In this document: positions 42,797-63,275 of the stretch, one piece after another
Numbering within the stretch: the first letter of the stretch is position 1
Layout of the letters: each line of letters begins with the position of its first letter
IMG/VR virus record: IMGVR_UViG_3300025695_000009
Source of the DNA: an uncultured virus (IMG/VR IMGVR_UViG_3300025695_000009)
Lineage: Duplodnaviria > Heunggongvirae > Uroviricota > Caudoviricetes
Strand: one strand, 5' to 3'
DNA: 64,000 nucleotides
Notes under the pieces: model-generated
What the model saw: the letters and a program-made list of their open reading frames with translations, nothing else
The model's database searches: none
Told to the model about the DNA's origin: nothing
Position numbers and translations under genes: made by a program

Positions 42797-43471
42797 ATGG
42801 GATGGATACAAAAAGACACAGGATGGATAAAAGCCATATTAGTAGCAGACTTAATAACCACAATCATAGAACATAACCCACAGATGACAGACTATCTCGA
42901 AATAGGAACTCAAACAGGGAAAACATTCAATAGAATAAACATAAAGAATAAAGTAGGGGTAGACATAGTAGACCAAAAAGAAAAGTTTAAATTCACGGCA
43001 ACACATATAACAACATCACAAAACTTCATACATAATATTAATAACCAAACTTACGACATAATACTTTGTGACGGAGATAGAGATGGTAAAGTATCATCAA
43101 AAGATATTGTAGACTCATATAACATATTAAACGATAATGGGTATATCATATTCCAAACAATACTAACAACAAACCCAATAGAAGAAAAGGTACCAAGACA
43201 ATCAATACGTTGGACAGGAGATACATGGAAATATATTCAAGACCTACAACATAATAAAACATTCCCCATATATCTTATTCATACAATGGATGAAAATCTA
43301 CCATACCACTTAGTTATCTCAAATAACCTACCATTCCAAAAAACAAATGGTAATCCACCAATGAAAGACTTTAATAAACTAATGTCCAATGTTGATGAAT
43401 ATTTCCATACACTTACAGTTGATGAACTTATTACACTAATGAATAAAAAAAATACTTCATACACCCGATAG
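42797..43471 (+). CDS. class I SAM methyltransferase-like protein
   Basis: YLEIG...G.TF, KVGVD, YDII..DG, L...G.I, WTGD.WK. Confidence 0.7.
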   Translation: MGWIQKDTGWIKAILVADLITTIIEHNPQMTDYLEIGTQTGKTFNRINIKNKVGVDIVDQKEKFKFTATHITTSQNFIHNINNQTYDIILCDGDRDGKVSSKDIVDSYNILNDNGYIIFQTILTTNPIEEKVPRQSIRWTGDTWKYIQDLQHNKTFPIYLIHTMDENLPYHLVISNNLPFQKTNGNPPMKDFNKLMSNVDEYFHTLTVDELITLMNKKNTSYTR

Positions 43472-43824
43472 GGATTCCTAAGTTTATCATAACCCAAATT
43501 AACAAACCATTAGTTTGGATACACACACATATATAAACCCAATCCCCCACGAAATTTTCCAAAAATTTTTTTTAGGGATTTCTACAGATTTTTTCCAAAA
43601 ATTTTTTTTTAAACTTTTACATACTTTATAGTCGGCATAGACCCCCCTTTTAGAGGTGTCAAAATGTCCTATATATACGGGGGCCCGGAGGGGGGGGGAC
43701 CCCCTATATTAGAGGGGGGTAGGTAGGGGGTTGTGTATCAGATACTTAGGGGGGGTGTCTTATGTTAATAACTTAGGTGTATTGTTAATAACTTTCTTAG
43801 GTGATAAATTGTCAGTAGATATAT

Positions 43825-43855
43825 TTTGTGGTTACAAATAATTGTTGTATCTTTG
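43825..43855 (+). promoter_or_regulatory. Bacteroidota sigma70 promoter (cassette 1, rightward)
   Basis: TTTG-N19-TATCTTTG. Confidence 0.7.
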
Positions 43856-43939
43856 TGTTGACGCTTTAGATATTTTCTTAGGGGAGAATATAAGGCAGGA
43901 TGGAGTCTACTCTTTCGGGGTGTTAACCTCAGACCATAA

Positions 43940-43970
43940 CAAAGATAGTGAAATCTTTTTTCATATACAA
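43940..43970 (-). promoter_or_regulatory. Bacteroidota sigma70 promoter (cassette 1, leftward)
   Basis: TTG-N20-TATCTTTG on minus strand. Confidence 0.7.
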
Positions 43971-43971
43971 C

Positions 43972-44002
43972 TTGTGTGGTAATTATTTTAGTTGTATCTT
44001 TG
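43972..44002 (+). promoter_or_regulatory. Bacteroidota sigma70 promoter (cassette 2, rightward)
   Basis: TTG-N20-TATCTTTG. Confidence 0.7.
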
Positions 44003-44050
44003 TGTTGGTGCCTTAGAGATTTTCTTAGGGGAGAATGTAGAGCACCATAA

Positions 44051-44082
44051 CAAAGGTAGTGAATATATTTTACATATACAAA
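44051..44082 (-). promoter_or_regulatory. Bacteroidota sigma70 promoter (cassette 2, leftward)
   Basis: TTTG-N20-TACCTTTG on minus strand. Confidence 0.7.
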
Positions 44083-44552
44083 TAAAGTTATTAACAGTGG
44101 GGGTGTTCATAAAATAATATACCGAAGGTATTCTTCAGGAACACCCCGTAAGTATGTGTGTCTTAGGGGATTACCTTAGGTGGTAAATTGTGGTAGACCC
44201 ATTAGGTACATATAAAAATAAAGTTATTAACAATACAAATTAGGGATAGTGTATAAAAAAATAGGGATTTTAGACAAATTGTCACCCCATTTATTTGGTT
44301 TTTAGAAAAAAAAGACGTAGAGGACGCGGACGGGTCAGACATTTTCCCCCACTTTCTACCACTTGGTGATTATAGTCTATAACTAAAAAAACCCCGATTT
44401 CACGAGGAAAAAGGGGAATTAATTAGGGTTTCATAAGTATAAATAGAAGTAATAAAGTGACTAACTTTTTACGACAAATACATAAGAAAAGTCCTGTTTT
44501 TAGTGGTAAAAAGGGGAATAAATCCCTGTTTTACATATAACTTTGTAGTGTA

Positions 44553-52782: not shown

Positions 52783-53169
52783 TTATCTTAATTTAACGTT
52801 AAATCTGTCTTCCATTTTTTGTAAACTTTCTTCTGGTACTCCATGTTCATTTACACCACCATGTCTGTTTTCAACAATTAGTGAATAAACTCTGTACCCA
52901 TACTTTTCTGCAAGTTCAAAATATGGTTTCATTTCCCATTCTTGGGTGAATGTGTTTGAAACTACTATTTTTTCTCCTAAAGCCATTGCTAATTCGGTAT
53001 TGGATTGGCACCAATTATGTGCCCTTTTAAGTTTATCCGCATCGAATTTATATTCACCCTCTGAATCTATGAAGTACATATCGGCTTCTAAATGTTTACC
53101 TCCTAATGATTTTGCTAATGTTGATTTACCACTACCTGGTAATCCTCTTAATAAGAATAACTCTTTCAT
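52783..53169 (-). CDS. P-loop kinase (AAA_33, PNK kinase-like)
   Basis: LRGLPGSGKSTLA, EAD.YF, AH.WCQ, VSNTF, HGVP. Confidence 0.85.
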   Translation of the reverse strand: MKELFLLRGLPGSGKSTLAKSLGGKHLEADMYFIDSEGEYKFDADKLKRAHNWCQSNTELAMALGEKIVVSNTFTQEWEMKPYFELAEKYGYRVYSLIVENRHGGVNEHGVPEESLQKMEDRFNVKLR

Positions 53170-53172
53170 AAT

Positions 53173-54180
53173 TTATAATTTTCTAAATTCTGGTTTAATA
53201 ATTCTCCATAAGGTTTCTGAGTAATCTGAACCATCTAACATCTTAAAAAGAAGTTGTGGATATTTGTATCTTTTTGCTAGTTTCGCAAATTCAGCTCTAT
53301 CATTTATTAGATGTCCCATTTTATTAAAAATCCAAACATATTCAGTCTCTAACATAATGTATTGGTGTTTTAATTCTTCTACATATTCTTCGATTTTATT
53401 GAAGAACTCATCTGGTACATCTTCTAATATTTTATAAATATCATTTCCACTACTCAGACATTCCCATACAGATTTAGTTGAGATTTCTGTCATAATCTTA
53501 TGAAGTCTAATATATTCTTCACCTTTGATTTTACATCTATCTCCATTTGAGAACTTAACTACAAATCCTTCTCTATTTTTACCTATATTTTGTTTTAAGT
53601 ATTTGTAATTCTTAATGTTATTGTAATTTTTAACAACATCATATCCATTCTTTCTAAATTGGTCTAACGAATATTCTTCACCTGATTTGGTTCCGATTCT
53701 ACCTAATAAAACTAATCTCTCTGAACCTGCGTAATCTACAACAATTCTGTTTTCTGGATAGATGATTTCAAACATATAGGTTGAATCTTTAGAAAAATGA
53801 GATTGTTGAAAATTATCCTTAAACATCTCACCACCTTTAATTGCCTGCTCAGAAGTAAAAGAACCTCTACTTGCAAAAATCCATTTACCGTCATAGTAAA
53901 ATGCAATACCTAAAGAACCATCCATTTTCTCATATACTTCAAACTCATCAGTTATTGTATGTTTCCCCTCCTCAATATTAAAGAACTTTTTAAATGGTCT
54001 TGCAACTATATTACCCATTTCATCGGTAACCAATCCTCTACATTGTAGAGTAATTTCATCCCACTTACCTTCATATTGAGTCGCCTGAGAATAGTTCCAT
54101 ATTGTTAATGGAAGAGTTAGATGAGTTTGTTTAATCAACCATCCCTCGTCATAATACTTCTCTAATAACTCTAAGTTCAT
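53173..54180 (-). CDS. RNA ligase 1 (T4 Rnl1-like)
   Basis: CRGL, RPFKKFFN, EKMDGSL, SRGSF, FEII...NRIV, EGFV, KIK...Y; TATATTTG at 54196-54203 (minus). Confidence 0.9.
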   Translation of the reverse strand: MNLELLEKYYDEGWLIKQTHLTLPLTIWNYSQATQYEGKWDEITLQCRGLVTDEMGNIVARPFKKFFNIEEGKHTITDEFEVYEKMDGSLGIAFYYDGKWIFASRGSFTSEQAIKGGEMFKDNFQQSHFSKDSTYMFEIIYPENRIVVDYAGSERLVLLGRIGTKSGEEYSLDQFRKNGYDVVKNYNNIKNYKYLKQNIGKNREGFVVKFSNGDRCKIKGEEYIRLHKIMTEISTKSVWECLSSGNDIYKILEDVPDEFFNKIEEYVEELKHQYIMLETEYVWIFNKMGHLINDRAEFAKLAKRYKYPQLLFKMLDGSDYSETLWRIIKPEFRKL

Positions 54181-54227
54181 TTTGTAATGTTTCTGCAAAT
54201 ATAAGGGAAAAAAAGTGGGTTTAAAGA

Positions 54228-56862: not shown

Positions 56863-57240
56863 TTAATTGTCTTTATTTCTTAATTGAGTAAATATACTCC
56901 CAAACCTATCCTTTAGACTTTTTACTATATCTATTGGAGTGTATTCTAATGGTGAGTTATATCTATCAGACTCTAATTTATCATAACAATATTTCACCAT
57001 AAAGTGAACATCTTCTTTTGGTAATCTTAAAAAGAATCTTCTACACATTACGTTTATCCTATCTCTTATACGTATAGATGAAATATCATAAAGAAACTCA
57101 TCAGTACACTTACTATCTTTAAACCTATTAAATGTTTCATAGGTCAAAACATACCCCTTACCATTTAACTTAGTATATATCAACCCCTTTAGTATATATA
57201 CATCACATAACACCCTTAATCCACCCTTAGGATATCCCAT
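56863..57240 (-). CDS. hypothetical protein
   Basis: 125-aa ORF in operon. Confidence 0.55.
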   Translation of the reverse strand: MGYPKGGLRVLCDVYILKGLIYTKLNGKGYVLTYETFNRFKDSKCTDEFLYDISSIRIRDRINVMCRRFFLRLPKEDVHFMVKYCYDKLESDRYNSPLEYTPIDIVKSLKDRFGSIFTQLRNKDN

Positions 57241-58048
57241 AGTCTCTCCAACTTTCAGGAACTCTACCGATAGTATCTTTTACTTTCTGAACTGATGGTC
57301 TATATATGTCATACAACATCTCGTATTGAGACTCATCAATATCCGTTAATACTGACTTATCAGATGAATTCTTAATCATAAAAGGTAATTCTTCGTGTCC
57401 AACCTCTAAGTATTTAAATAACTTTGTTAACTCAACACTACGATTCGTCTTAAACTCTTCAGTAATAATATAGTGACAGTTGTCACCAAATACGGATTGT
57501 ATATTATCCAACAATATGTCGTAACGACCTAACTGTATCTTATTCATCGAACTCATCCTATAAGGTTGGTGTTTATCTAAAAAGTAATACCTTTCCAACT
57601 GAAACGATAAGAAACTCTCAAATGTCGTATTCTCATCCATCTCATCCCATATTGAACTGTAATAGTCAGGCGAATACCTACTATAGTCCTCGTCAATCTT
57701 TGACCTCAGTACTGAATTCATAAAAGACCACCACGATAAAAACTTATCAATAGGGTCTCTCATCATAAAGATGTTTTTTACGTCATCCCCACAATAATGT
57801 TTAATCGCCTCTAAATATGTTTTTGAGTTTGAGTGTGTAACACTTTTGTCACCTATAATCTTTTTGTCTTGTCCGTCAATGAAATATTCATTAACCCATA
57901 ACTCAACAGGGGTAGTATAAAAACTACGACTAAAATAATGCGTTTCGTCATCCGTAAAATACATCTCTGAATGATGACTTAGGACTTTCTGTAAGGTAGA
58001 AGTGCCACATTTGGACCCTCCTAAAATAAATGTATTTGGTAGTTTCAT
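57227..58048 (-). CDS. sulfotransferase (heparan-sulfotransferase-like fold)
   Basis: LP.TFILGGSKCGTSTL...L..H, E.HYF, GDKS, RDP....S, G.Y, F.YL; TATTTAT at 58069-58075. Confidence 0.85.
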   Translation of the reverse strand: MKLPNTFILGGSKCGTSTLQKVLSHHSEMYFTDDETHYFSRSFYTTPVELWVNEYFIDGQDKKIIGDKSVTHSNSKTYLEAIKHYCGDDVKNIFMMRDPIDKFLSWWSFMNSVLRSKIDEDYSRYSPDYYSSIWDEMDENTTFESFLSFQLERYYFLDKHQPYRMSSMNKIQLGRYDILLDNIQSVFGDNCHYIITEEFKTNRSVELTKLFKYLEVGHEELPFMIKNSSDKSVLTDIDESQYEMLYDIYRPSVQKVKDTIGRVPESWRDYGIS

Positions 58049-58351: not shown

Positions 58352-58592
58352 GTTTTTCTAAAATTTTATCAACTTTACCGTCTACAGATTTAAGGTCTCT
58401 CTTGATGTAGTCTAATTCTACTTGTAGAGCCTCAGGATTTACCTTTTCTAATTTCTGTTCCATTCTCTCAACCTTATCCTTAAGTAACTCAGTCTTAGTA
58501 TCCATACGATAGTATAGACCAACTGCAGATAAAATAAGAACAGTTATCGTGATGTAATCTTTAAGTGCGAATTTTGGTGCCGTTATTGCCAT
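58338..58592 (-). CDS. membrane protein with coiled coil (holin/XhlA-like possible)
   Basis: single TM then heptad repeats ending KVDKILE; TATTTAT at 58611-58617. Confidence 0.55.
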   Translation of the reverse strand: MAITAPKFALKDYITITVLILSAVGLYYRMDTKTELLKDKVERMEQKLEKVNPEALQVELDYIKRDLKSVDGKVDKILEKLEKE

Positions 58593-58714
58593 GTTTAAAA
58601 TCTTATACTAATAAATATCATTAAAAAATAGAAACTACAAACTTAAATAAAGTTTTTTTTAACTTATTTAATTTATTTAGTCTCTTTATATAAATACCTT
58701 AAAAAAGTTTTTAC

Positions 58715-58748
58715 AAAAAAAAACCTCTGCAGTTTTACTACAGAGGTT
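58715..58748 (-). terminator. intrinsic terminator of the large ncRNA
   Basis: minus strand AACCTCTGTAG-TAAAA-CTGCAGAGGTT plus T-tract; wobble works only on minus. Confidence 0.85.
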
Positions 58749-58759
58749 GAGGGGTATTG

Positions 58760-59495
58760 AACGCTGAGACTACACGTCTATGTGATTCGTCTTTAGGTGG
58801 TGTACCTCAATGATGAGTTGCCATCCTGTCCACCATACTTTAGTATAGTATCGAATCAGTGTCGGTTATTTACGTGAACCACTCGTTTCGTTGAACAACT
58901 ACTCAACTACAAAATTAAACTATCGAATCTTGCGGACTCACTAAGGGCTGACCACCCACTAATTTTATCGTAATCGACATCGGAAGACTTGCGGTCTTAC
59001 GAAGACTTCATTAATCCTATGGACCTGAAGTATTAGACACCTTTCGTTGTCAACGCCTGAAGTCTTTTGCTTGTATCTATCTTATAATAGTAGCAAAATG
59101 TGAGTTAAGTAAAGATGTGCTTCAGGAGAAGGTTCATTCCTTTTGGGAAAGAAATACTTCACACCTTTATGTAAGTCTGTCAACCTACGGTATTTCAGGA
59201 CTACGTTTACTTTAACGTATCGGTAACCCTTAATACTGGTACTCAGCCCTACAATATCTGACAGGATATGTCGAACCGTCACCTGTGGTTTATCCTATTG
59301 GTATCACTACCTCAACTTCGAAATCTCACAAATTCAAAGTATCTTCTTTCCCTCAACAGTTGTCCTCAGGAAATTAGACGTTACCACTTTGTTTAGTTGT
59401 CAGAGTTAAACTCTGCGGGTTTCCAATAGATACTACTCTACCTTCTACCCCTTTAGTCCTGTTGCCAGGTTTATCTAACGACGCTAAACCGCCAA
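58760..59495 (-). ncRNA. large (~735 nt) structured non-coding RNA, GOLLD-like
   Basis: GC-enriched and ORF-poor; many hairpins including GCAA-loop stems; own promoters, boxA and terminator; family name from size and recalled resemblance only. Confidence 0.7.
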
Positions 59496-59574
59496 TTTGA
59501 TTATATATTTACACTTTTTAAAGGGGGTTAATCCATCAACAAAATATTGATATAATCAAACTAATACATTAAAT

Positions 59575-59728
59575 AAAGAACTCGTCTAAATTTTATTACC
59601 TTACAAATCTAAGGATAGTTTTTCATTATGTCAAACTATTTTTTAAATTTTTAAGGTTTTTTTTGTATTTGTTATAATCTTAACGACTTTAACTATACAA
59701 ATGTAGAAAATAAATATAACAGTATCAA
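59575..59728 (-). promoter_or_regulatory. tandem promoters and boxA-like site for the ncRNA
   Basis: TTG-N20-TACATTTG (59698-59728); TTTG-N20-TAGATTTG (59604-59635); TATTTAT (59710-59716); AGTTCTTT (59575-59582). Confidence 0.7.
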
Positions 59729-59765
59729 CTAAAGTTCTATTTTATTTGACACTTTTTTTAGTTTT

Positions 59766-61601
59766 CTACTCTACCGTCACACTTTTTGCTAAGTTTCTAG
59801 GTTTGTCAACGTCTTTACCATTCAATGATGCGATTTTATACGATAGTAATTGTAGTGGTACAACCGTCAATAACGGAGATACATACTCATTAACTTCATC
59901 AATATAAATTACGTCATCAACAATAGTCTTAGTCATTTCATCACCTTTGTAACAAATAGCAATAACTTTACCACCTCTCGCCTTTACCTCTTGGATATTA
60001 GATAAAACTTTATCGTAGTGAGGACCTGATTGTGCTATGAACACACTAGGACAATTCTCATCAATCAGAGCGATTGGTCCGTGTTTCATCTCACCAGCAG
60101 GATATCCCTCAGCATGAATATAAGATATCTCTTTTAGTTTTAACGCTCCCTCCAATGCAGTTGGGAAGTTAATACCTCGACCCATAAATAAAAAGTCTTC
60201 ATAGTCCTTATACTTTTCAGCAATTCTAAATATCTCTTCCTTATTATCAAGTATGTTCTTAATCTTCTCAGGAATAAATCTTAGAGACTGTTTGATATTA
60301 TAGAACTCATGGTCTGTAATGTTATTAAGTTGTTTCGATAGTTTTAACGCCAACAACATAAAAGCCGTCACCTGTCCTGTGTACGCCTTTGTAGATGCAA
60401 CCCCAATCTCAATACCTGAGTGTGTGTATATTCCGGCATCTACCATACGTGCGATTGAAGAACCAACGGAATTGACCACACCGAATAAAGTAGCACCCCT
60501 TTCCTTAGCCATCTCCAATGCCGCTTTGGTATCTGCAGTTTCTCCTGACTGAGAAATCGCAATAACAACATCTCCGTGTTGAATAATAGGATTACGATAT
60601 CTGAACTCAGACGCGTAATCAACCTCAACGGGTATTCGGGTTAAATTCTCAATTAAGTATTTCCCCACTAACCCAGCGTGCCAACTAGTACCACAAGCAA
60701 CAATAAAAATACGTTGTGCTCTTAATAGTTTTGGTAATATACTCTCCGTTCCTCCCATCATAAGTGGTAAGTCCCCGTCTGTTAAACGACCCCGTAAGCA
60801 ATTTAAAATGGTTTCTGGTTGTTCAGCAATTTCCTTTAACATAAAAGAATCAAAACCACCTTTCTCGATTGTTTCTAAGTCTAAATCAACTTTCTCAATC
60901 ACAGGATTAACATCTTTATTATCCATATCAATAATACGAATACCACCCTCTGTAATTGTGGCAATCTGATTATCCTCGACATAAATAATGTCATCCGTAT
61001 GAGTAAGGATTGGAGTGGCATCGGATGCAACCATAAAGTAGTCCTCACCGATACCTATCGCCATTGGTGAACTTTTCCTTGCGGTTACAACCTTATCCTC
61101 GTTAGTATCCATCACTAAGATAGCATACGCTCCAACAACTTCTTTTAGTGAGAGTCTAACAGACTCCTCTAATGAACATTCACACTTTACCTTAACATAG
61201 TGAATCCAATTCACCAAAACTTCAGTGTCAGTATCCGAATGGAATTCATACCCTTCAGACTTTAACTTAGTTTTAAGTGTTTCGTAATTCTCAATAATTC
61301 CGTTATGGACTAATGTGATTGTCCCATCGTTGGATGAGTGTGGGTGGGCATTTCTAACTTCAGGTGCTCCGTGGGTAGCCCAACGAGTATGACCAATAAC
61401 CATATTAGTCTCACTAAATGTACTATCCAACTTATTAACCAATTGGTCAACACCTCCCACCGCTCGAGTAACAGTAATCCCGTCTTTAGTACGTATCGCA
61501 ATACCTGAAGAATCATACCCTCGATATTCCAAACGAAACAATCCGTTGATTACTTTATTGACCGGTGAGTCATTACCTATATATCCTACAATCCCACACA
61601 T
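59766..61601 (-). CDS. glmS: glutamine-fructose-6-phosphate aminotransferase (isomerizing)
   Basis: MCGIVG, LEYRGYDS, GHTRWATHG, SQSGETADT, EGALKLKEISY, PRNLAKSVTVE. Confidence 0.97.
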   Translation of the reverse strand: MCGIVGYIGNDSPVNKVINGLFRLEYRGYDSSGIAIRTKDGITVTRAVGGVDQLVNKLDSTFSETNMVIGHTRWATHGAPEVRNAHPHSSNDGTITLVHNGIIENYETLKTKLKSEGYEFHSDTDTEVLVNWIHYVKVKCECSLEESVRLSLKEVVGAYAILVMDTNEDKVVTARKSSPMAIGIGEDYFMVASDATPILTHTDDIIYVEDNQIATITEGGIRIIDMDNKDVNPVIEKVDLDLETIEKGGFDSFMLKEIAEQPETILNCLRGRLTDGDLPLMMGGTESILPKLLRAQRIFIVACGTSWHAGLVGKYLIENLTRIPVEVDYASEFRYRNPIIQHGDVVIAISQSGETADTKAALEMAKERGATLFGVVNSVGSSIARMVDAGIYTHSGIEIGVASTKAYTGQVTAFMLLALKLSKQLNNITDHEFYNIKQSLRFIPEKIKNILDNKEEIFRIAEKYKDYEDFLFMGRGINFPTALEGALKLKEISYIHAEGYPAGEMKHGPIALIDENCPSVFIAQSGPHYDKVLSNIQEVKARGGKVIAICYKGDEMTKTIVDDVIYIDEVNEYVSPLLTVVPLQLLSYKIASLNGKDVDKPRNLAKSVTVE

Positions 61602-61607
61602 ATAATA

Positions 61608-61823
61608 CTATCCTACTAATGTACCTTTAAGACTTCTAAGAGCCTCCATCTTATCTTTTGCCGATGCTAATTGGTCGATAAGACCATCAATCTCTTCCGT
61701 GTGTTGTGGGTGTTCCCCAATCGCCACAGGGTTTTTGAAATAAATGGTTAATCTTGCCGTTGCATCTGCAATATCAGATTCGTACTTTTTGACTGTTGCG
61801 TCGTATAATAATTCACTAATCAT
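61608..61823 (-). CDS. small conserved phage protein
   Basis: Y..NPVAIGEHPQ..EE. Confidence 0.7.
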   Translation of the reverse strand: MISELLYDATVKKYESDIADATARLTIYFKNPVAIGEHPQHTEEIDGLIDQLASAKDKMEALRSLKGTLVG

Positions 61824-61840: not shown

Positions 61841-62896
61841 TTACTTTATAAATGTAGTATTTGTTTTTAGTCTTTTCAAGCTCTCGATAAACATTTTTAT
61901 CACAGATTCTACATCATCTTTATGTGCCATCTCAACAGTTGTATGCATGTACTTTAATGGTGTTGCAACAATCGCAGTTGGTATACCACCATCAGCTAAG
62001 AAGAATCCCATAGTGTCGTTACCATACGAACCAATCGTTAGTTGGTAAGGTATCTCATTTTCATCTCCAACTGTTCTGAATAACTCAATCAACTGTCTAT
62101 GGTTTTGTGCGGTGTGTTCAATAGCGCAACCGTTACCACCAATAGTCTCACAGTCCTTCTTAACATCATACATCGGTGCCTTTGTGATATGACACACATC
62201 AGTTACCAATGCAACATCTGGTTTGATATTATTAGCAATCATTCTCGCTCCGTACAATCCAACTTCCTCCTGTACTGAATTGACAACATACAAATCAAAC
62301 GGTAACTTATCACCATTCTCTTTTAATCTACGAGTAACCTCTGCGATGATGTAACCACCAATCTTATTATCCAATGCCTTTCCAACATAATAGTTACCCA
62401 TCTCGTGTAGTCGGTCATCGAAGTTTACAATGTTACCCACTTCAATACCCATTTCGATAACCTCATCCTTAGAACTCGCACCCACATCGATAAAGTTATT
62501 CTTCAATGATGGATTGTCCTCTTTGTCTTTTCTTACGTGAATCGCTGGCCAACCAAATACTCCCTTTAGTCTACCGTTCTTTCTCGTATGAATAACCACT
62601 GTTTTTGATGGGGCAATCTGATGGTCTGAACCACCGTGTCTAACCACATATACAAAACCGTCAGCATCAATGTGAGAAATCATCCATGAAATCTCATCAC
62701 AATGTGCCTCAATAACAACTTTCTGTGCTCCTTCAATACCTGACTTTACAATACCATAAGCAGTACCATAGTTATCGTGATGAATCTCATCAACATACTC
62801 AGTTAAATAATCCGTCCACACCTTTTGTCCCTCACCTTCTTCGGCAACAGGAGAATACGCATTTAGGTAATCATATAAAAATTCCTTACTGTCCAT
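61841..62896 (-). CDS. M42 family metallo-aminopeptidase
   Basis: EAHCDEI, GG, DVG, ALDNK.G, VQEEVG..GA, DV, PLKYMHT..E; start refined to MDSKEF. Confidence 0.9.
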   Translation of the reverse strand: MDSKEFLYDYLNAYSPVAEEGEGQKVWTDYLTEYVDEIHHDNYGTAYGIVKSGIEGAQKVVIEAHCDEISWMISHIDADGFVYVVRHGGSDHQIAPSKTVVIHTRKNGRLKGVFGWPAIHVRKDKEDNPSLKNNFIDVGASSKDEVIEMGIEVGNIVNFDDRLHEMGNYYVGKALDNKIGGYIIAEVTRRLKENGDKLPFDLYVVNSVQEEVGLYGARMIANNIKPDVALVTDVCHITKAPMYDVKKDCETIGGNGCAIEHTAQNHRQLIELFRTVGDENEIPYQLTIGSYGNDTMGFFLADGGIPTAIVATPLKYMHTTVEMAHKDDVESVIKMFIESLKRLKTNTTFIK

Positions 62897-62930
62897 ATTT
62901 ATTAATTTAATACTATTTATTAAAAGAAAT

Positions 62931-63275
62931 ATGAATATAAAATTTAAAGATATCAACTTACCAGTCACTTTATGTGTCACTCCAGAACAAATACGTAAAG
63001 GTATTCAGGGGTTGGACTCATTAAACGGTGAAGGATACTTATTTTTCTTATCGGAAGGTCAACATTCCTTTTGGATGAAAGACTGCCTAATCCCAATAGA
63101 TATTATATTTCTTCAGGACGGTAAAATTACAGAAATTTATTCGGATTGCCAACCCTGCACCTCAGAAGATTGTGAAAAATATTTAGGTACTGGTAATATG
63201 GTATTAGAAGTTGAATCAGGTTTTTGTTCACAACACGACATAAAAAAAGGAGAATCCTTTCGAATTCTCCCTTAA
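62931..63275 (+). CDS. DUF192 family protein
   Basis: G..F...SFWMKD.LIPIDIIF...VLEV..G. Confidence 0.85.
   Translation: MNIKFKDINLPVTLCVTPEQIRKGIQGLDSLNGEGYLFFLSEGQHSFWMKDCLIPIDIIFLQDGKITEIYSDCQPCTSEDCEKYLGTGNMVLEVESGFCSQHDIKKGESFRILP

What the first reader, a model, noticed from the sequence alone, without database searches (positions are those of the whole stretch)
58760..59495. ~735-nt ornate non-coding RNA (GOLLD-like) with its own transcription unit
Seen: an ORF-poor, GC-enriched island on the minus strand, bounded by promoters and a terminator and packed with stems, e.g. CCTG-GCAA-CAGG (59458-59469), CAGAGT/ACTCTG (59401-59415), TACGTT/AACGTA (59202-59219), AAGAC-CGCAA-GTCTT (58984-58998), GAGTC-CGCAA-GATTC (58925-58939), and longer-range CCTGAAG/CTTCAGG. 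It ends ...GTGTAGTCTCAGCG. Established: GOLLD and ROOL are large phage-associated structured RNAs of unknown function that form RNA-only multimeric cages; GOLLD is ~800 nt and often near tRNAs. Inference: this is a GOLLD member or a new relative. No tRNA is adjacent here; it lies between glmS and two membrane-protein genes.
Basis: partly seen in the sequence, partly recalled or inferred. Interest (0 to 1): 0.85.

Follow-up and report, generated by a model that had tools for sequence, protein, structure and literature searches.

The report
Compact phage GOLLD RNA, rRNA-style leader
This gene-free stretch of a large marine phage encodes a compact member of the known cage-forming GOLLD RNA family, which appears to be transcribed with the same start signals that its likely host bacteria use for ribosomal and transfer RNAs.

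Summary
Rfam RF02032 matches 58761-59169 (-) over the whole model at 244.8 bits (cut-off 150). Relatives fix the conserved body at 59493-58761 (733 nt); 37 of 76 pairs in the 5' half, which Rfam does not model, covary. It belongs to a compact group (about 725-760 nt) of related large phages. That group lacks the P11a-c arms of the solved env-38 RNA but keeps most inter-chain contacts, including a covarying L10-L12 kissing loop, so an RNA-only cage is likely. In five related phages, 11 of 16 promoter+boxA sites head GOLLD, tmRNA or tRNA genes. Marine metatranscriptomes from 19 studies hold the stretch, and four contig sets stop just before the terminator. No close relative has an adjacent tRNA, and glmS is not a conserved neighbour. 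This scan already reported GOLLD with a boxA leader on other DNA. Verdict: new member of a known family; its biological role is inferred, not shown.

The parts
59698..59728 (-). Upstream Bacteroidota sigmaA-type promoter P1 (TTG, spacer, TACATTTG -7 box); predicted +1 near 59693
   Evidence: Pattern match; -7 box TAnnTTTG at -12 to -5 per PMC9723704 passages; a second upstream box is seen by eye in many relatives. Start site inferred.
59604..59634 (-). Main Bacteroidota sigmaA-type promoter P2 (TTG, 20 nt, TAGATTTG); predicted +1 near 59599
   Evidence: a -7 box lies within 60 nt upstream of the boxA-like motif in 38 of 47 distinct GOLLD loci.
59574..59581 (-). boxA-like motif GUUCUUUA (relatives mostly GUUCUUUGAAA); presumed NusB/NusE loading site
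   Evidence: 46 of 47 distinct loci carry it within 200 nt upstream; same arrangement before Bacteroidota 16S, 23S and tRNA genes and before phage tmRNA and tRNA genes. Nus binding inferred.
59496..59560 (-). Leader stem-loop that abuts the GOLLD 5' end; sequence variable, fold kept
   Evidence: MFE z -3.3 here; median z -3.2 over 22 compact members, weak (about -0.8) in the two with a short leader (mononucleotide shuffles); covered by RNA contigs of runs X1, X8 and partly X11.
59170..59493 (-). GOLLD 5' cap domain, P2-P12 (numbering by eye from env-38): GNRA L3, P7 GGRCAAC motif, L8 (59330-59325), GNRA L8a, L10 CUGUCA (59264-59259), short P11 without P11a-c, L12 UGACAG (59182-59177)
   Evidence: Alignment A1; 37 of 76 pairs change on both sides, 98.9% of cells paired, 0 of 500 shuffles; joint alignment with long forms; coordinates.
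58761..59169 (-). GOLLD conserved 3' domain (P13/14-P27), with a 37-nt linker (59109-59072, no tRNA), L15 pseudoknot, L20 CGCAA, L21a UGGUCA, L21b CGCAA
   Evidence: Rfam RF02032 244.8 bits, model 1-416 of 416; tertiary pairs.
58751..58752 (-). Place where RNA contigs of four runs from four studies stop, 9-10 nt past the conserved end and just before the terminator stem
   Evidence: contigs only, no DNA run laid: a weak hint of a defined 3' end.
58714..58748 (-). Intrinsic terminator hairpin with U tract
   Evidence: kept with base changes in the compact relatives.
59766..61601 (-). glmS (glutamine-fructose-6-phosphate aminotransferase); not a conserved neighbour
   Evidence: Pfam SIS and GATase domains; singleton among neighbour proteins of 47 other loci.
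61608..61823 (-). 71-aa viral protein of unknown function (phrog_1811); the conserved upstream neighbour of the compact group
   Evidence: homologue upstream in 25 of 25 compact loci (window included) and 0 of 23 long-form loci; Atlas: unnamed viral clusters only.

Best explanation
A compact GOLLD RNA gene of a large tailed phage that probably infects marine Bacteroidota. Shown by computation: family membership, the fold, the conserved leader anatomy, and presence in RNA libraries. Inferred steps: (1) Host RNA polymerase with sigmaA starts at P2 (and P1). The boxA-like motif loads host NusB/NusE, so the long untranslated RNA is made by the rRNA-type elongation complex, which resists Rho and aids co-transcriptional folding, as the phage's tmRNA and tRNA genes appear to be (about 0.75). 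(2) The leader is probably removed and the 3' end sits just before the terminator, giving a stable RNA of about 735-745 nt (about 0.55). (3) Copies assemble through GNRA/A-minor contacts and kissing loops into a dihedral RNA-only cage, most likely about 12 chains because it lacks P11a-c as the 12-mer Streptococcus RNA does (cage about 0.8; 12-mer about 0.45). (4) Role, my best guess at about 0.35: an abundant stable RNA in the phage's translation-support kit (with tRNAs, tmRNA, RNA ligase and kinase) that binds or shields host translation components, or soaks up host ribonucleases, during infection. The confidence given is for steps 1-3 with the identity.
For: Rfam match. Covariation in the 5' half and in the long-range pairs: L10-L12 95% paired, with 2 of 6 pairs changing on both sides; L15 pseudoknot 4 of 7; L8-linker 3 of 6, two of them changed in this copy alone. 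L3 and L8a are GNRA in 22 of 22. These sites correspond by eye to bridges B1-B4 and B6-B10 in the residue tables of PMC12286853. boxA-like motif in 46 of 47 loci. 24 of 120 bacterial hits of the promoter+boxA pattern precede 16S, 23S or tRNA genes, and all 16 of these with a title are Bacteroidota. In five related phage records 11 of 16 sites head GOLLD (5), tmRNA (3) or tRNA genes (3); the reversed pattern gave 2 hits. No phage NusB in those 5 records, so host factors are implied. 20 runs hold the stretch, 19 on record as RNA, from 19 studies. GOLLD-ribosome pull-down is mentioned in PMC12286853.
Against: No Nus binding, start site, processing or assembly was measured. This copy's boxA departs from the group consensus (GUUCUUUAUUU against GUUCUUUGAAA). 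The host scan used the motif itself as query, so it does not give the share of rRNA operons that carry it; 96 of 120 hits had no rRNA or same-strand tRNA detected downstream (some end at a contig edge). Three GOLLD loci with a different 5' half (L005, L029, L064) show no such motif by eye. Only contigs were laid: they give no strand, start or level, and the X1 contig runs through glmS, which could be read-through or DNA. Bridge B5 is missing, and B7 scored only 77% paired in the alignment, partly from misregistered columns. The host is inferred from promoter type only. Nothing here tests the biological role.
Confidence: 0.7

Rival explanations
1. The cage is a container or storage scaffold for tRNA, here bound in trans or no longer used, as proposed for GOLLD RNAs that carry a tRNA in the linker.
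For: Proposed in PMC12286853 and PMC12990946. The five related phages checked carry 5-21 tRNA matches elsewhere. 10 of 23 long-form loci have a tRNA within the held flanks.
Against: 0 of 36 compact loci (24 distinct) have a tRNA in the held flanks (eight flanks are short). The linker is 33-61 nt in 22 of 22, too short for a tRNA. The nearest tRNA genes in five phage records lie 33 kb or more away. Covalent tRNA cargo is therefore not general.
Confidence: 0.2
2. The GTTCTTTGA motif is not a Nus site for GOLLD; it is a leftover of an ancestral tRNA-operon leader, or a processing or DNA-level signal, and GOLLD is made by ordinary transcription or read-through.
For: Divergent copy in this window; an RNA contig continuous with glmS; GOLLD is often in tRNA clusters.
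Against: The motif is invariant or nearly so over 7 columns while the leader around it diverges. It is kept in both compact and long forms, with or without tRNAs. It matches the B. subtilis boxA (AUGAUCUUUGAAA) shown to bind NusB in PMC13753749.
Confidence: 0.2
3. This compact form does not make a closed cage; it works as a monomer or small oligomer, perhaps with a protein such as the linked 71-aa product.
For: P11a-c (bridge B5) and the P7 bulge are missing, and the two P21 loops are in swapped order relative to env-38. The 71-aa gene is upstream in 25 of 25 compact loci.
Against: The Streptococcus RNA also lacks P11a-c and still forms a 12-mer (PMC12990946). The L10-L12 kiss covaries, and L21a keeps a self-complementary GC, GGCC, AGCU, GGCU or GGUC core. 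Gene linkage in related phages may be plain synteny; 1.8-2.1 kb of other genes separate the two in 3 of 25 loci.
Confidence: 0.15
4. A cis-regulatory RNA for glmS (ribozyme- or riboswitch-like) or another ornate family (ROOL, OLE, intron, RNase P).
For: Position next to glmS.
Against: It lies 3' of glmS; glmS is absent from 47 of 47 other loci; no other family reaches its cut-off.
Confidence: 0.01

Closest known systems
GOLLD RNA, Rfam RF02032
   Same: Full-length match of the 3' domain at 244.8 bits; phage-borne; variable 5' half; AU-rich linker.
   Different: Rfam models only the 3' 416 positions. This copy is 66.7-78.4% identical to its 21 aligned relatives and has no tRNA nearby. Five close relatives score 264-300 bits, which suggests the model already represents this group.
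GOLLD env-38 (833 nt, D7 14-mer; PDB 9MEE; PMC12286853)
   Same: By eye: P2-P8a homologous, GNRA L3 and L8a, P7 B2 motif, L10-L12 kiss, L8-linker pairing, A-rich L14, both P21 hairpins.
   Different: 100 nt shorter. P11 is 47-62 nt with no P11a-c (no B5). The L10-L12 kiss is CUGUCA/UGACAG instead of UAAUCCC/GGGAUA. The CGCAA loop is on the second P21 hairpin and the GGC-type loop on the first (swapped). env-38 lies downstream of a tRNA-Met.
Streptococcus agalactiae GOLLD (700 nt, 12-mer; PDB 9L0R; as reviewed in PMC12990946)
   Same: Similar size; both lack P11a-c; both keep the L10-L12 kiss and the L3 contact.
   Different: The review says it also lacks P9 and P21b. This RNA has a second P21 hairpin and an L8-linker pairing that I take to be P9. 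Its sequence was not compared here.
Bacterial rrn leader and antitermination system (promoter, boxA, NusB/NusE/NusA/NusG/SuhB/S4)
   Same: Promoter, then GUUCUUUG/A within tens of nt, then a stable RNA; the same arrangement precedes Bacteroidota rRNA and tRNA genes.
   Different: Drives a phage orphan RNA. No boxC or leader-trailer helix was identified. Nus binding in Bacteroidota was not found in the papers searched.

Membership tests
GOLLD (RF02032) | Covariance-model match of the conserved 3' domain above the gathering score | tested here: met
   244.8 bits against 150, model 1-416 of 416
GOLLD (RF02032) | Structured, more variable 5' domain homologous to that of known GOLLD RNAs | tested here: met
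   37 of 76 pairs covary; aligns with long forms over P2-P8a; match to env-38 by eye only
GOLLD (RF02032) | Long-range pseudoknots and kissing loops | tested here: met
   L10-L12, L15 and GGUGUC/GACACU pairings; L8-linker
GOLLD (RF02032) | Phage or prophage location | tested here: met
   Relatives in IMG/VR viral contigs up to 297 kb, CheckV 99%; window has phage RNA ligase and other PHROG matches; 0 of 151 sampled Bacteroidota-phylum genomes had GOLLD (control did not ring)
GOLLD (RF02032) | Often next to or containing a tRNA (typical, not defining) | tested here: not met
   No tRNA in the window or near 36 compact loci; linker 33-61 nt
GOLLD (RF02032) | Expressed as a discrete RNA | tested here: inconclusive
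   19 RNA runs hold it; four contig sets share a 3' stop; strand, start and level not available
GOLLD (RF02032) | Protein-free multimeric cage | not testable with these tools
   Bridge motifs conserved; needs mass photometry or cryo-EM
rrn-type boxA antitermination leader | boxA-like sequence shortly after a promoter, upstream of a stable RNA | tested here: met
rrn-type boxA antitermination leader | NusB/NusE binding and read-through of Rho-dependent terminators | not testable with these tools
   No binding or reporter data
ROOL, OLE, group I/II intron, RNase P, glmS ribozyme | Covariance-model match | tested here: not met
   None listed at E up to 10 in 58400-59900

The most novel reading that the evidence does not exclude
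The compact group is a third GOLLD architecture, with a Streptococcus-like reduced cap on an env-38-like ring with swapped self-kissing loops, free of tRNAs. Its phages single it out, with tmRNA and tRNAs, for the host's ribosomal-RNA transcription machinery. GOLLD would then be a phage 'ribosome-class' stable RNA whose cage depends on Nus/SuhB-chaperoned folding in the cell and which acts on the host translation apparatus. A tRNA-free, naturally expressed 733-nt member makes that directly testable.
Probability: 0.3. Interest if true: 0.65.

Novelty: new member of a known kind. Interest (0 to 1): 0.33.

Why it matters
GOLLD function is an open question. This copy adds three usable facts. (1) A whole group has no adjacent or embedded tRNA, so covalent tRNA storage cannot be the general role. 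(2) The shared promoter+boxA signal with phage tmRNA and tRNA genes points to how it is made and to a Bacteroidota host, which gives a simple test in Flavobacterium. (3) Its mix of kept and lost bridges is a natural test of what sets cage size. The family and cages are published, and the boxA leader has been noted by this scan on other DNA, so the surprise is modest.

Tried and rejected
No whole genome is held for the window. blastn against 50,697 phage records gave one 61-nt hit only. The first viral pattern was too strict (3 loci). The glmS search of genome contigs found no relative, so it gave no host; tblastn in phage records gave 83 records, all under 60% identity and none informative. 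The loose pattern TTTG..GTTCTTTRA in three Bacteroidota genomes was at control level (26/22/50 against 16/21/48) and is not used. GOLLD was not found in 151 sampled genomes of that phylum, but the control did not ring either. The sigma-70 promoter scan was at chance level. An idea that leader CCCUUU pairs with AAAGGG after P3 was dropped untested: AAAGGG overlaps the covarying P4 stem. Two RNAalifold long-range helices (columns 20-26 with 783-790, and 484-486 with 667-669) were left out as near-invariant and in conflict with the Rfam structure. Lack of contig cover downstream of 58751 is not taken as evidence of silence. Rows dropped: 15 of 80 long loci lacked the 5' anchor motif and 19 were duplicates before the 47-locus count; 36 loci with 300-nt flanks were not used for context; L039, L059 and L068 were left out of alignment A1 as near-copies of L007. 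The published GOLLD alignment could not be read (archive cut) and PMC7549688 is not held, so I cannot say whether this compact form or the leader is already drawn there or in the 2009 discovery paper. Searches for GOLLD with boxA and boxA with Bacteroidetes and NusB listed no paper on the point; most subscription papers and bioRxiv supplements are outside the library.

Full report
Observation. It holds no ORF longer than 66 aa, folds better than 20 of 20 shuffles (z -2.7), and the window has no tRNA.

Identity. Rfam gives one match in the whole window: GOLLD RF02032, 59169-58761 on the minus strand, 244.8 bits against a cut-off of 150, model positions 1-416 of 416. Nothing else reaches a cut-off locally. 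The window looks like part of a large tailed phage: RNA ligase and polynucleotide-kinase-like genes, PHROG matches, and relatives in viral records up to 297 kb. No whole genome is held.

Relatives. A 3' motif scan found 116 viral loci, 80 with long flanks. In 36 of these 80 (24 distinct) both halves of the RNA match strongly (E 1e-28 or better). Conservation begins at GGCGG (59493), ends at CUCAGCG (58761), and is followed by a terminator kept with base changes. These forms are about 725-760 nt, against about 790-825 nt for the others whose length could be measured. On a tree of the 3' core the 22 compact rows form one side of a branch (98/95), though the group was first picked by likeness to the window; this copy is 66.7-78.4% identical to the others.

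Fold. In 22 aligned sequences the 5' half, which Rfam does not model, has 76 pairs: 98.9% of cells paired, 37 pairs with changes on both sides, 0 of 500 shuffles as high, slid controls at 31-43% (the structure came from RNAalifold on the same alignment). I mapped stems by eye to env-38 with the sequence and residue tables of PMC12286853. Changed: P11 is 47-62 nt, without the P11a-c arms of the long forms, and the two P21 loops are in swapped order. B7 scored only 77% paired. The review PMC12990946 states that the 12-mer Streptococcus RNA lacks P9, P11a-c and P21b, while env-38 makes a 14-mer. This RNA lies between the two, so a cage is likely and about 12 chains is my guess.

Upstream lie two promoters of the Bacteroidota sigmaA type (59728-59698 and 59634-59604; consensus in PMC9723704), then GUUCUUUA at 59581-59574, then a stem-loop (59560-59496) that abuts the RNA. 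46 of 47 distinct GOLLD loci have the motif within 200 nt upstream by a slightly loose pattern, and 38 of 47 have a -7 box just before it; the strict 8-mer occurs at 0.14 per kb in these loci (15 loci without the 5' anchor and 19 duplicates dropped). 24 precede 16S, 23S or same-strand tRNA genes, and all 16 of those with a title are Bacteroidota. In five related phage records the pattern gave 17 matches at 16 sites, against 2 for the reversed control: 5 head GOLLD, 3 tmRNA, 3 tRNA genes, and 5 lie in or against ORFs. None of the five records has NusB (one is near complete). boxA loads NusB/NusE to build the rRNA elongation complex, and the B. subtilis form AUGAUCUUUGAAA binds NusB (PMC13753749); that complex also acts as an RNA chaperone (PMC8632103). 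I infer that the phage makes GOLLD as the host makes rRNA. Against this: the copy here ends UUUAUUU rather than UUUGAAA, the host scan was motif-led, a looser pattern was at control level, and three GOLLD loci with another 5' half show no such motif by eye.

Expression. 20 public runs hold the stretch, 19 on record as RNA, from 19 studies, nearly all marine or seawater. In four runs laid, contigs stop at 58751-58752, just before the terminator stem; upstream they reach 59450, 59548, 59734 and beyond 61700. One ends in letters that I recall as an Illumina adapter. These are contigs and no DNA run was laid, so this shows presence and a weak hint of a defined 3' end, not strand, start or level. 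The leader is covered in three of the four.

Context. None of the 36 compact loci has a tRNA in the held flanks, against 10 of 23 distinct long-form loci; kinship makes this about one event. The five records checked do have tRNA genes, 33 kb or more away. The linker is too short for a tRNA. glmS is found beside none of 47 other loci; a 71-aa gene of unknown function is upstream in 25 of 25 compact loci and 0 of 23 long ones, so glmS looks like an insertion between it and GOLLD.

Mechanism and odds. Identity 0.98; rRNA-type transcription 0.75; leader removal 0.55; cage 0.8; role in supporting or shielding translation 0.35, tRNA container 0.2. GOLLD function is unknown in print as far as I read; ribosome binding in pull-downs and tRNA cargo are suggestions in PMC12286853.

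What is known. Family, cages and 5' variability are published. Searches for GOLLD with boxA found no relevant paper, but this scan has reported GOLLD with a boxA leader on other genomes (e1-8125475, e1-5979021, e1-6231409); I saw those notes after my own tests of the leader. PMC12990946, PMC13753749, PMC8632103, PMC9723704 and PMC6582537: passages only. The 2009 discovery paper: not seen. Whether the compact form is already drawn there is open.

Verdict. A real, well-supported new member of a known family with a compact architecture and an rRNA-style leader. Interest 0.33.

Noticed in passing
window 43470-44550: About 1 kb without ORFs of 90 aa or more, with G/C runs and four Bacteroidota-type promoters in two convergent pairs (43826+, 43972+, 43970-, 44081-). 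Direct repeats of 54 nt (spacing 147) and 38 nt (spacing 111), and a 21-nt inverted repeat. It could be a genome end, an origin or paired small RNAs.
   Followed up: partly
window 52783-54198 (-): T4-type RNA ligase next to an AAA_33 / polynucleotide-kinase-like gene: a likely RNA repair pair, 4.5 kb from GOLLD.
   Followed up: partly
L009 1145-2188; window 59766-61601: In L009 a gene that looks like glutamine synthetase (recognised by eye) sits directly upstream of GOLLD, where this window has glmS: two separate glutamine-related insertions after the 71-aa gene.
   Followed up: no
L005, L029, L064: Three GOLLD loci with a different, shorter 5' half, no obvious boxA, and tRNA-like fragments nearby; they form their own branch.
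   Followed up: partly
L273, L275, L285 (1528-1928): tmRNA genes in related phages, each directly behind a -7 box and boxA-like motif.
   Followed up: yes
window 59710-59717 (-): An ATATTTAT motif overlaps promoter P1 and is seen by eye upstream of many GOLLD relatives; possibly a phage-specific promoter. Not tested.
   Followed up: no
PMC12286853 supplement 4, ROOL alignment: A few ROOL rows begin with UCUUUGA, a boxA-like string, so ROOL genes may share the leader type.
   Followed up: no
window 57227-58048 and 61841-62980 (-): A sulfotransferase-like gene and an M42 aminopeptidase, host-like metabolic genes near GOLLD.
   Followed up: no
run X8, record 13 (59471-59493): A short RNA contig from a related GOLLD carries 69 letters of a leader like that of L013, so a relative's leader is also present in RNA.
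   Followed up: no
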